A stretch of DNA of 64,000 nt from the human T2T-CHM13v2.0 reference genome, Homo sapiens. Each line of letters opens with the position of its first letter. Position 1 is the first letter of the stretch. Below are positions 43,901 through 45,867 of the stretch, one piece after another. The DNA lies in the NCBI RefSeq assembly GCF_009914755.1, contig NC_060937.1. The stretch is one strand, 5' to 3'. A model generated the notes under the pieces. That model had not been told where the DNA came from, ran no database searches, and saw only the letters and a list, made by a program, of their open reading frames with translations. A program made the position numbers and the translations under genes.

Positions 43901-44051
43901 GAAAAATTGTCTAGAGAAATAGATATTATAAAGAAAAACCAGCCTTTTGTGTTAACTCACTGGGTCACTCTGCTTCTCCTGTTTCTCTTCTGTTATTATG
44001 AATTGGTTCATCTTTACTCCTTACTAGAACTGAGACTTCAGCGTGGTTCTA

Positions 44052-44130
44052 TGTTTTCTGAATCTTAGTTTCCTCAAATTTAAAATGGGCTGATACCTGG
44101 GGTGGCTGTGGAATTACATGGGACAAAATG
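44052..44130 (+). mobile_element. MIR core fragment within the insert
   Basis: 'tctgaatcttagtttcctcaaatttaaaatgggctgata' matches the MIR core. Confidence 0.6.
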
Positions 44131-44144
44131 TGTTGAGCACTTAC

Positions 44145-44322
44145 CCTTCCCTGCACTGGAGCACGCAGTCTTCTCCCAGCTGGAACCAGCCTAGTCTGCA
44201 GGAGTGACACTGCAGGCTGTGTCTCCCTTCACATGTCCTACAAGAGCTGGGGCAGTGGGCACACTGGTGGCTGTCCTCATTGGCATAATAGCCCTTTGGG
44301 CAGTCCTTCACACAGGTTGTGT
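44145..44322 (-). pseudogene. PCSK5: Orphan unprocessed copy of one PCSK5 (PC5/6B)-like exon encoding furin-like Cys-rich repeats (a dispersed copy, not the gene itself)
   Basis: Translates without stops to [58 protein letters not shown](G), close to the PCSK5 CRD segment as I recall it ([60 protein letters not shown]); bounded by acceptor cttctcctcccatgacag and donor gtaagt; 178 bp. Confidence 0.85.
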
Positions 44323-44407
44323 CTGTCATGGGAGGAGAAGAGTCTATTTGGACATCAAGCATGACACATGTCTCCCCTATGGTTTTTTCATTGTTGTTTT
44401 TCTTATG

Positions 44408-44713
44408 TTTTTAATTTTTTTGAGACGGATTCTTGCTCTGTCACCCAGGCTGCAGTGCAGTGGCATGATCTTGGCTCACTGCAACATCTGCCTCCTGGGT
44501 TCAAGCGATTCTCCTGCTTCAGCCTCTGGAGTAGCTAGGATTACAGGCACCCACCACCAGGCCTGGCTATTTTTTTTTTTTTTTTGTATTTTTAGTAGAG
44601 ATGGGGTTTCTCCATGTTGGCCAAGATGGTCTCAAACTCCTGACCTCAGGATATCTGTCTCCCTTAGCCTCTCAAAGTGCTGGGATTAAAAGCCTCAGCC
44701 ACCACACCCAGCC
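44408..44713 (-). mobile_element. AluS (Sx-like) within the insert
   Basis: Reverse-complement Alu with a degenerate T tail; possible TSD ctcccctatggtttt / ctcccttgtgtttt. Confidence 0.93.
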
Positions 44714-45867
44714 AGCCTCCCTTGTGTTTTCCCTCCTGTGTACCATGGTGGGAGGAGAGGGGTGCGTGAGGAAAAAAAAACACTATCAGAATTTCTGGGA
44801 ATACAAGACACATTTATGAAATTATGAAATGCAGTGGAAAGTATTAGCAATAGAGTCAAACTAGTAGAAATAAAAACTTTCATAGATTAAAGACAAAGTG
44901 TTTTGAATTAACTCAAACAGACAAAAATAAAAAAAAAGAATCAAAACAAATAAAGTCTCCAAGAATTACGGGGTTATGTAAAACAGCCAAATCTAAGAAT
45001 AATTGGTGTTCCCGAGAGATAAGAGAAAACAAAAAGGCTGGAAAACTTATTTGAAGGAATAACTGAGAAAAACTTCCCTGGCCTGGCTAGAGACTTACAT
45101 ATCCAAATCTAAGAAGTTCAAAGAATTCCTGGGTTATTTGGTGCAAGAAGATTTTCACCAAGGCATATAGTCATAAGATTATCTAAAGTCAGCATGAAGG
45201 AAAGAATTCTAAGAGCAGTAAGACAAAAGCATTAGGTAATCTACAAAGGAAGACCTATCAGACTAACCATAGACTTCTCAGCAGAAACATTACAAGCCAA
45301 AAGAGATTGGGGTCCTACTGTTAGCCTCCTTAAACAGGATAAATGTCAGCCAAGAATTTTGCATCCAGCAAAACTAAGTTTTATAAATGAAGGATAAATA
45401 AACTCATTTCAGACAGATAACTGCTGAGGTAATTTGTCACTACCAAATGAGCACTACTAGAAATGCTAAAAGGAGTTCTAAACTTTGAGACAAAAGCCCA
45501 ATACACACCAAAATAGAATTTCCTGAAAGCTTAAAACTCACAGGACCTATAAAACAATAACACAGCAACAAAAAACTAACTACCTAGGTAACAATTAACA
45601 TGATGAAAAGAATAGTATCTCACATCTCAAAATTAATATTGAACATAATTGGCCTAAATGTTCAACTTAAAAAGATACAGAATGGAAGAATGGATTTAAA
45701 AATCACACACCAAATGTCTGTTGTCTTCAAGAAACTCACCCAACAAAAATAGATTCATATAAACTCAAGGTAAGTGGGTGGAAAAAAAAGTTCCACACAA
45801 ATGGAAACCAAAAATGTGGAGTAGCTATTCTGATACCAGACAAAACAGATTTCAAAGCAAAAACAGT

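What the first reader, a model, noticed from the sequence alone, without database searches (positions are those of the whole stretch)
43941..44771. Orphan PCSK5-like exon with intact splice sites and intron flanks inserted into the middle of an L1 ORF1
Seen in sequence: the L1PB ORF1 is cleanly split at an A-rich site, and about 830 bp of non-L1 DNA lies between the two halves. On the minus strand the insert holds a polypyrimidine tract and AG (44324-44323), a 178-bp stop-free exon (2 nt + 58 codons + 2 nt) of furin-like Cys-rich repeats, and a GTAAGT donor (44144-44139). Intron-like flanks are present, including a MIR piece. Established knowledge (recalled, not searched): the peptide matches the cysteine-rich domain of PCSK5 isoform B, with all Cys kept and roughly 10 substitutions. 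The acceptor phase fits the split Asn codon of 'LLN|TTC'. Inference: this is not a processed pseudogene, because intron sequence is retained. It is not an ordinary segmental duplication either, because it is tiny and lies inside a younger repeat, and I see no other PCSK5 exons in the window. It looks like a single-exon capture, comparable to the reported dispersed ATM and CFTR exon copies, and is a ready-made exon-shuffling substrate.
Basis: partly seen in the sequence, partly recalled or inferred. Interest (0 to 1): 0.85.

Follow-up and report, generated by a model that had tools for sequence, protein, structure and literature searches.

The report
Stray PCSK5 exon inside old L1
About 490 bases of the PCSK5 gene on chromosome 9, one exon with pieces of both neighbouring introns, were copied tens of millions of years ago into an old L1 repeat on chromosome 13, where they now look like a decaying relic of an already described kind of small insertion.

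Summary
On the minus strand, window 44322-44145 is a stop-free 178-nt exon with an AG acceptor and a GTAAGT donor. Together with its flanks it matches one contiguous stretch, chr9:88488551-88489040, and nothing else in the genome. That stretch is the PCSK5 exon for residues about 1525-1582. The exon differs at 16 of 178 nt and 10 of 58 aa, and all 10 Cys are kept. The intron flanks differ at 35 of 314 nt.

So only about 490 of the 830 nt come from PCSK5.

The host L1 is colinear across the gap. In 15 of 18 related L1 copies the two halves overlap by 6-13 nt, which points to a 12-nt target-site duplication.

Nine of the 10 amino-acid changes are derived on chr13, three of them at positions invariant in 36 orthologs. 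That fits neutral decay.

The most likely mechanism is a tailless insertion made by the L1 machinery. Capture during double-strand-break repair is not excluded. This kind of event is already catalogued (PMC2671141, PMC5110952). It is a new member of a known kind, and interest is low.

The parts
42036..43941 (+). Left (5') half of the host L1: 5' region plus the start of ORF1 (coiled-coil part). The true 5' end was not determined; 42036 is as far as my reference loci reach.
   Evidence: 39 related L1 copies match at 79-84% over 43560-43941. Homology stops at 43935-43944 in every one.
43930..43941 (+). Left copy of the target-site duplication, AAAGAAAAACCA. It may include G at 43942, which is either an L1 base or a 1-nt filler.
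   Evidence: in 15 of 18 related L1 copies the two window halves overlap by 6-13 nt of L1 coordinates. The relatives read ATAAAGAAAAACCAATCAGAA once.
43943..44144 (-). Copy of the PCSK5 intron downstream of the exon, 202 nt, including a MIR-like piece.
   Evidence: 22 differences in 202 aligned nt against chr9 (L002 1751-1955). Homology ends at 43943.
44145..44322 (-). Copy of one PCSK5 Cys-rich-domain exon: 178 nt, open frame, AG acceptor and GTAAGT donor kept.
   Evidence: 16 of 178 nt and 10 of 58 aa differ from chr9. 10 of 10 Cys are kept. It corresponds to residues 1525-1582 of an 1886-aa PCSK5 ortholog.
44323..44371 (-). Copy of the PCSK5 intron just upstream of the exon: polypyrimidine tract and AG.
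   Evidence: 5 differences in 55 aligned nt. That stretch runs into the Alu target duplication.
44372..44389 (-). Second copy of the Alu target-site duplication (PCSK5-derived sequence).
   Evidence: chr9 holds this stretch (GAAAATACAGGGGAG) once. In chr13 it flanks the Alu on both sides.
44390..44716 (-). Alu with an A-rich tail, inserted secondarily. It is absent from the chr9 donor.
   Evidence: query positions 59-375 hit Alus genome-wide at 81-85%; chr9 is contiguous across this point; its distance from other Alus is typical of old Alus.
44717..44731 (-). First copy of the Alu target-site duplication (PCSK5-derived sequence).
44717..44773 (-). Distal piece of the upstream PCSK5 intron copy, 57 nt. 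It marks the end of the insert.
   Evidence: 8 differences in 57 aligned nt plus a 4-nt gap against L002 1463-1523.
44772..44784 (+). Right copy of the target-site duplication, AAAAAAAAACACT. Its first two A overlap the last two PCSK5-templated bases.
   Evidence: chr9 reads GAGGAATGGG where chr13 reads GAGGAAAAAAAAAC. At most 7 A are therefore untemplated, and none are if the whole run is the duplication.
44785..46342 (+). Right half of the host L1: rest of ORF1 (RRM and C-terminal domain) and the start of ORF2. It continues beyond 46342, which is as far as my reference loci reach.
   Evidence: PF02994 at 45113-45232 and PF17490 at 45236-45394.

Best explanation
A ~490-nt stretch of PCSK5 was copied into the coiled-coil part of ORF1 of an L1 already resident on chr13. 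The stretch holds one exon of the long isoform's Cys-rich domain with about 110 nt of the upstream intron and 200 nt of the downstream intron. The donor, chr9:88488551-88489040, was left intact. An Alu later landed in the copied upstream intron. The piece has since decayed neutrally.

Shown: the identity of the donor, its limits, the order of events (L1, then the PCSK5 piece, then the Alu), the 12-nt duplication of L1 target sequence, and the neutral pattern of change.

Inferred mechanism: the L1 endonuclease/reverse transcriptase acted in trans at the A-rich site 5'-AT|AAAGAAAAACCA. The nicked T-rich bottom strand primed on an RNA whose 3' end, or an internal site, read ...GAGGAA. The result was a 'tailless' or very short-tailed retro-insertion, 5'-truncated and flanked by a target-site duplication. 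Because the A-run and the duplication lie at the + strand 3' end of the insert, the RNA would have been antisense to PCSK5.

My odds: about 0.95 that it is a neutral PCSK5-derived templated insertion into a pre-existing L1, and about 0.5 for the L1-machinery route.
For: Donor and limits:
- Searches give two colinear pieces, 405 of 457 and 49 of 61 identical. There are only 2 copies in the genome.
- PCSK5 identity rests.

Pre-existing L1:
- The halves are colinear in related copies.
- The L1's own terminal branch is about 0.115-0.134 substitutions per site (star-tree estimate from 13 relatives). That compares with 0.06 per lineage for the insert (JC 0.121 / 2).

Alu later: it has a ~15-nt target duplication made of PCSK5-derived sequence that is single-copy in chr9.

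Target duplication:
- 15 of 18 related L1 copies with both halves matched show a 6-13 nt overlap.
- The other 3 (L012, L021, L028) start the right-hand match 15-53 nt further in and say nothing either way.
- 1 of 19 (L024) had no right-hand match.
- No L1 base is lost at the site.

Neutrality:
- Exon divergence of 9.0% is close to the 11.1% of the introns.
- Taking each changed base alone, 10 changes are non-synonymous and 6 synonymous.
- 9 of the 10 amino-acid differences are derived on chr13. H24P, E51D and L53V fall at positions invariant in 36 of 36 orthologs.

Precedent:
- Of 29 inter-chromosomal insertions into repeats examined, 17 ended in a poly-A/T tract of 5 nt or more, and 12 of those 17 had target duplications (PMC2671141, passages).
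- L1-mediated tailless retrocopies with target duplications are described for many RNAs, mRNAs included (PMC5322556, abstract and passages).
Against: - No clear poly-A tail. At most 7 A are untemplated, and none are if the run is the duplicated L1 sequence.
- No AATAAA or ATTAAA in the last 40 nt of the + strand insert (read).
- The target CTTT/AT departs from the TTTT/AA consensus at two positions.
- The required RNA is antisense to PCSK5, and I have no evidence that such a transcript exists. One search found no paper on a PCSK5 antisense transcript; its one hit was a false match.
- A sense pre-mRNA, the obvious source of exon plus intron, fits a repair patch better.
- Target duplications without tails also occur in insertions ascribed to break repair: 6 of 12 distant cases without a tail in PMC2671141 Table 1.
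- The duplicated target is A-rich and 12 nt long, with about 3 changes between its copies, so its exact length is soft.
Confidence: 0.5

Rival explanations
1. Double-strand-break repair patch, the same in kind as a class 2 templated sequence insertion or a 'distant' repair-mediated duplication. A staggered break in the L1 was filled in and sealed by end-joining or synthesis-dependent strand annealing. The filler was a DNA copy of PCSK5 sequence, or a cDNA of its pre-mRNA.
For: - The donor is an exon with introns from a transcribed gene, as expected for pre-mRNA-derived patches, and a patch can go in either way round.
- There is a 2-nt microhomology (AA) at one junction and 0-1 filler nt (G at 43942) at the other.
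- There is no poly-A signal and no clear tail.
- Six of 12 tail-less distant cases there had a target duplication.
Against: - Class 2 insertions are defined by having no target duplication and often show micro-deletion (PMC5110952). Here about 12 nt are duplicated and none are lost.
- The site is an A-rich L1-endonuclease-like target.
- The dating is soft, but it places the event in the era when Alu and L1 were very active. The Alu nested inside is old as well.
Confidence: 0.33
2. Replication-based template switching (fork stalling and template switching, or microhomology-mediated break-induced replication). A stalled fork in the L1 copied about 490 nt from chr9 and returned 12 nt behind its point of departure.
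For: It would explain a templated insertion with short junction microhomology and a duplication of the flanking target without any RNA.
Against: - The donor is on another chromosome, and there is a single simple insertion with no further rearrangement.
- The microhomologies are minimal, at 0-2 nt.
- No feature is specific to this route.
Confidence: 0.08
3. The PCSK5 piece was picked up while the L1 itself was being reverse-transcribed, through two template switches. Alternatively, the composite L1 was retrotransposed here as a unit from another locus.
For: L1 reverse transcriptase is known to switch templates and form chimeras (bioRxiv 10.1101/2025.02.02.635956; search listing and abstract start only).
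Against: - The L1's own branch is about twice as long as the insert's per-lineage divergence: 0.115-0.134 against 0.06.
- No other genomic copy carries the insert.
- The route needs two switches that restore L1 colinearity with a 12-nt re-copy.
Confidence: 0.04
4. The exon copy is not a mere relic. It has been kept splice-competent and Cys-intact because it is used as an exon of an unannotated transcript.
For: - The frame is open, 10 of 10 Cys are kept and both splice sites are intact.
- Under random mutation of the chr9 exon, the chance of no stop and all Cys kept is 0.045 with 16 hits, 0.086 with 13 and about 0.155 with 10.
Against: - The finding was picked because it looked intact, so these odds are not surprising.
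- The number of amino-acid changes equals the neutral expectation: 10 observed against 9-11 simulated.
- Three changes hit positions invariant in 36 of 36 orthologs.
- No gene is annotated in the window (hub note).
- It is a lone 58-codon exon with phase 1-2 ends inside an L1.
Confidence: 0.04

Closest known systems
Interrupted-repeat duplications of Pace, Sen, Batzer and Feschotte 2009 (PMC2671141), 'distant' class with the donor on another chromosome
   Same: Unique DNA found at only one other place in the genome interrupts a repeat whose two parts are colinear. The size is a few hundred nt. There is an A/T tract of 5 nt or more and a target duplication, as in 12 of the 29 inter-chromosomal cases they inspected. 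That study also reports whole exons with intron flanks being copied and then evolving without constraint.
   Different: Their two complete-exon cases were proximal duplications within or near the same gene. Here the donor is on another chromosome and a later Alu sits inside the insert.
Templated sequence insertions / TSIPs, class 1 and class 2 (Onozawa and Aplan; review PMC5110952)
   Same: A short stretch templated from a distant, transcribed region is inserted while the donor stays intact. Like class 1, it has a target duplication of at least 5 nt at an A-rich site. Like class 2, it has junction microhomology and lacks a tail and a poly-A signal.
   Different: This one is ancient and not known to be polymorphic. 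It fits neither class fully: it has a target duplication but no 10-40 nt poly-A and no AATAAA.
Tailless retropseudogenes (Noll et al. 2015, PMC5322556)
   Same: A target duplication without an oligo-A tail. The 3' end of the copy abuts the duplicated A-rich target, with a few bases of complementarity, as expected for internal priming by the nicked target.
   Different: Those were defined mainly on small structured RNAs and some mRNAs. Here the template would be an unspliced, unannotated RNA antisense to a gene, and only 2 nt of complementarity are visible.
Dispersed CFTR exon 9 and ATM exon copies, and L1 3' transduction as an exon-shuffling route
   Same: A single exon with intron flanks is found away from its gene, next to L1 sequence.
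   Different: By recall, those copies spread with large pericentromeric duplications, and transduced exons lie downstream of an L1's 3' end. Here there is one copy, it sits inside ORF1, and it is flanked by a duplication of L1 target sequence. My search did not retrieve the CFTR papers.

Membership tests
PCSK5-derived unprocessed pseudogene fragment | The best and only genomic match is a PCSK5 exon, in register with the protein | tested here: met
   the chr9 match is 83% identical at the protein level and lies in order among 20 colinear chr9 matches of a PCSK5 ortholog; its relatives are named PCSK5.
PCSK5-derived unprocessed pseudogene fragment | The flanks match the donor gene's introns on both sides | tested here: met
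   112 nt upstream and 202 nt downstream align with 35 differences in 314 nt.
Processed pseudogene | Introns removed and exons joined | tested here: not met
   Intron sequence is kept on both sides. No neighbouring exon is present.
Segmental duplication | At least 1 kb at 90% identity or more (definition recalled) | tested here: not met
   About 490 nt at 89%. The 3.45-kb chr9 locus matches the window nowhere else apart from Alus.
Class 1 templated sequence insertion (L1 ORF2p-mediated) | Target-site duplication of at least 5 nt | tested here: met
   A 6-13 nt overlap of the two L1 halves in 15 of 18 related copies.
Class 1 templated sequence insertion (L1 ORF2p-mediated) | Untemplated poly-A of 10-40 nt | tested here: not met
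   0 to 7 untemplated A. A tail could have shrunk over time, so this is weak evidence.
Class 1 templated sequence insertion (L1 ORF2p-mediated) | Poly-A signal 10-20 nt upstream of the tail | tested here: not met
   No AATAAA or ATTAAA in the last 40 nt of the + strand insert, nor in the matching chr9 sequence.
Class 1 templated sequence insertion (L1 ORF2p-mediated) | Insertion at 5'-TTTT/A-3' | tested here: inconclusive
   With a 12-nt duplication, the bottom strand reads TTTTTCTTT/AT. It is T-rich and followed by A, but it is not the exact consensus.
Class 2 templated sequence insertion (break-repair patch) | No target duplication, often with micro-deletion | tested here: not met
   There is a duplication and no L1 base is lost.
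Class 2 templated sequence insertion (break-repair patch) | Junction microhomology or untemplated bases | tested here: met
   An AA overlap at the right junction and a possible 1-nt filler at the left. These features are not specific.
Tailless retropseudogene | Target duplication, no oligo-A tail, and a 3' end at a site complementary to the nicked target | tested here: inconclusive
   The duplication is present and a tail is absent or very short. Only 2 nt of complementarity are visible. An RNA origin cannot be tested here.
L1 3' transduction | The non-L1 sequence follows the 3' end of an L1 and ends in its own poly-A | tested here: not met
   The insert lies inside ORF1, with L1 sequence continuing colinearly on both sides.

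The most novel reading that the evidence does not exclude
The copied exon is more than debris. It has kept an open frame, all ten cysteines and both splice sites for tens of millions of years because it serves as an exon of an unannotated chr13 transcript. If so, a lone splice-ready exon delivered by the L1 machinery in antisense, tailless fashion would be a working route of exon shuffling that needs neither L1 transduction nor segmental duplication.
Probability: 0.04. Interest if true: 0.6.

Novelty: new member of a known kind. Interest (0 to 1): 0.2.

Why it matters
It is a clean, datable example of how a single splice-competent exon can be moved between chromosomes in a piece of less than 1 kb. 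Three nested events (L1, then the PCSK5 piece, then the Alu) give the order without outside data. It falls between the two published classes of templated insertion: it has a target duplication but no tail and no poly-A signal. For that reason it is a useful test case for tailless, internally primed L1 insertion of non-L1 RNA. As far as the evidence goes it has no function, and hundreds of comparable insertions into repeats have been listed. The value is as an illustration, not a discovery.

Tried and rejected
I cannot say whether it has been catalogued.
- Pfam on the lone peptide gave only sub-threshold matches, so I did not use it for the identification.
- Literature search for a PCSK5 pseudogene or antisense transcript returned 1 paper, and that was a false match on 'PCSK5-as novel'.
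- Search for the CFTR exon 9 copies: none of the 10 listed papers holds the phrase. A search for intron-containing retrocopies returned only unrelated splicing papers.
- Dating by the Alu failed. Its non-CpG distance from the column majority of 23 other Alus is 8.1% (20 of 247). That is more than the insert's 4.8% per lineage, although the Alu must be younger. I put this down to mixed subfamilies in the reference set and draw no date from it.
- Dating by shared amino-acid states is ambiguous. H22 is shared only by the two human copies (0 of 36 orthologs), which suggests a copy made after the New World monkey split. Codon 36 (CTG against chr9 AGG) is one step from the ATG inferred for the Met of most non-primate orthologs, but two steps from AGG.
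- Orphan 3' transduction from an L1 in the PCSK5 intron: within the 5.4 kb on the relevant side I saw only Alu-sized blocks. My L1 references cover only the 5' third of L1, so this check is weak. The lack of a poly-A signal also speaks against it.
- A sense-strand RNA inserted by target-primed reverse transcription is rejected. There is no T-run at the left junction, and the + strand there (ACCA/AT) is not an endonuclease site.
- Terminal inverted repeats at the insert ends (a DNA transposon): none seen by eye. I ran no repeat search for them.
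Full report
**What is there**

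The window is human chr13 (T2T) 55986001-56050000. On the minus strand, 44322-44145 is a 178-nt stretch that reads as 2 nt, 58 codons and 2 nt without a stop. It is preceded by a pyrimidine-rich tract and AG (44324-44323) and followed by GTAAGT (44144-44139). The peptide has ten cysteines in the spacing of furin-type Cys-rich repeats. Pfam alone gives only sub-threshold matches: Furin-like_2 at E 2.3e-4 and 21.7 bits against a cut-off of 28.

**Where it came from**

- A search of the whole 3.1-Gb genome with the 831-nt insert gave one non-repeat hit: chr9:88488587-88489040 at 89% over query 375-829, plus chr9:88488551-88488609 at 80% over query 1-55. All other rows were Alu matches to query positions about 42-409.
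- With the Alu left out, the genome holds exactly two copies, chr13 itself and chr9 (2 matches at E <= 10).
- The 58-aa peptide finds chr13, chr9 (83%) and a distant chr15 match (39%) only.
- The two chr13 pieces abut on chr9, so the donor is one contiguous stretch of about 490 nt (405 of 457 and 49 of 61 identical).

**The donor is PCSK5**

- The chr9 exons for the P domain of proprotein convertases lie at 88317684-88328437 on the same strand.
- A capuchin PCSK5 protein gives 20 colinear chr9 matches from 88049875 (residues 1-66) to 88515518 (residues 1752-1885). The donor exon at 88488652-88488843 is in its proper place (residues 1522-1585).
- The only match outside chr9 that is not a paralogous convertase gene is the chr13 copy. 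That search used a stricter first look, so weak matches may be missing.
- The 50 database relatives of the exon that carry a descriptive name are called proprotein convertase subtilisin/kexin type 5.
- In the 64-kb window, all 15 tblastn rows of the ortholog fall on this one exon. The 3.45-kb chr9 locus matches nowhere else but in Alus.

- Positions 44716-44390 (minus strand) are an Alu with an A-rich tail.
- On both sides it is flanked by a ~15-nt stretch (44731-44717 and 44389-44372) that chr9 holds once.
- The Alu therefore arrived after the PCSK5 piece. Only about 490 of the 830 nt come from PCSK5.
- The MIR-like piece in the downstream flank is also present in chr9, so it was copied with the intron. 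I named it MIR by eye only.

**The host L1**

- The L1 lies on the + strand.
- ORF1 domains are found just downstream of the insert: PF02994 at 45113-45232 and PF17490 at 45236-45394. The insert sits upstream of them in ORF1. Placing it in the coiled-coil part is my own reading of the translated flank, since that flank matched no Pfam family.
- Thirty-nine related L1 copies match the left flank at 79-84%, and all stop matching at 43935-43944.
- Of 19 related copies fetched, 18 also match the right flank. In 15 of those 18, the left match ends and the right match begins so that 6-13 nt of L1 are covered twice.
- In the other 3 (L012, L021, L028) the right match begins 15-53 nt further in, so they are silent on the overlap. 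L024 had no right match.
- The relatives read ATAAAGAAAAACCAATCAGAA once. The window reads ...ATAAAGAAAAACCAG, then the insert, then ...AAAAAAAAACACTATCAGAA.
- So no L1 base is missing, and about 12 nt (AAAGAAAAACCA) are present twice, with roughly three changes between the copies. This is a target-site duplication.
- I could not test the name L1PB.

**Order and age**

- The intron flanks differ from chr9 at 35 of 314 sites (JC 0.121). The exon differs at 16 of 178 sites.
- A consensus-free star-tree estimate gives the L1 copy a terminal branch of 0.115 and 0.134 in two 0.9-kb segments (13 relatives each). That is about twice the 0.06 per lineage of the insert.
- The firm order is L1, then the PCSK5 piece, then the Alu.
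- With recalled primate rates of 1-2.2e-9 per site per year, the insert is roughly 27-60 million years old, and about 36 at 1.7e-9. This is soft.
- Chr13 keeps the ancestral His at exon position 18 (34 of 36 orthologs) where human chr9 now has Asn. So the copy predates that change.
- His at position 22 is shared only by the two human copies (0 of 36 orthologs), which hints at a date after the split from New World monkeys. Codon 36 points weakly the other way.
- The Alu gave no usable date.

**Is the exon kept by selection?**

- Nine of the 10 amino-acid differences are derived on chr13. Three (H24P, E51D, L53V) fall at positions invariant in all 36 orthologs.
- Ten amino-acid changes are what 13-16 random hits produce (9-11).
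- The chance that such hits leave no stop and all ten Cys is 0.045-0.155, depending on how many hits fell on chr13. That is not remarkable for a finding chosen because it looked intact.
- I read it as a neutral relic.

**Mechanism**

- On the + strand the insert ends ...GAGGAA, followed by A-run, C, and L1. Chr9 has GAGGAATGGG there. At most 7 A are untemplated, and none are if the run is the duplicated AAAGAAAAA.
- There is no poly-A signal nearby.
- A 12-nt duplication at an A-rich AT|AAAG site, with the A-rich end of the insert abutting the second copy, is the layout left by L1 target-primed reverse transcription. Here it would be in its tailless or short-tailed form (PMC5322556, abstract and passages).
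- This needs an RNA antisense to PCSK5, for which I have no evidence.
- The main rival is a break-repair patch from PCSK5 DNA or pre-mRNA cDNA. It explains the exon-plus-intron content and the missing tail. However, class 2 insertions are defined by lacking a target duplication (PMC5110952, parts 1-2 read).
- In the survey of insertions into repeats, 17 of 29 inter-chromosomal cases ended in an A/T tract and 12 of those had duplications. Six of the 12 tail-less distant cases also had duplications (PMC2671141, passages).
- I put the L1 route at about 0.5, the repair patch at about 0.33, replication template switching at about 0.08, and pick-up during the L1's own insertion at about 0.04. The last is disfavoured by the two-fold age difference and by the absence of any third copy.

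**Verdict**

The kind of event is known and has been catalogued genome-wide. It is a new member of a known kind and of low interest.

Noticed in passing
G000:C11:117150874-117151924 (+) and G000:C11:117223262-117224312 (-): The Pfam P_proprotein matches on chr11 come as two mirror-image pairs with identical scores, about 72 kb apart. This looks like an inverted duplicate of the chr11 proprotein-convertase gene (PCSK7 by recall) in this assembly.
   Followed up: no
window 45880-45925 (+): A long A-rich run inside the start of the host L1's ORF2 translates as a string of about 13 lysines. It is either a simple-repeat expansion or the tail of another small insertion.
   Followed up: no
window 44390-44716 (-): The nested Alu must be younger than the PCSK5 piece. 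Yet it shows a larger non-CpG distance from other Alus (8.1%) than the piece shows per lineage (4.8%). The cause is probably mixed Alu subfamilies in my reference set, but this is unresolved.
   Followed up: partly
window 44213-44215 (-), codon 36 of the exon copy: Two adjacent bases differ from chr9 (CTG against AGG). This is either one dinucleotide event or a sign that the copy was taken from an older Met-coding allele, since most non-primate orthologs have Met there.
   Followed up: partly
L029 (G000:C9:88484474-88494473): The PCSK5 introns around the donor exon are packed with Alu-sized blocks: 8 blocks in 10 kb matched by my held repeat loci. The donor fragment lies between two sense-oriented Alus, about 640 nt after one and 80 nt before the next.
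   Followed up: partly
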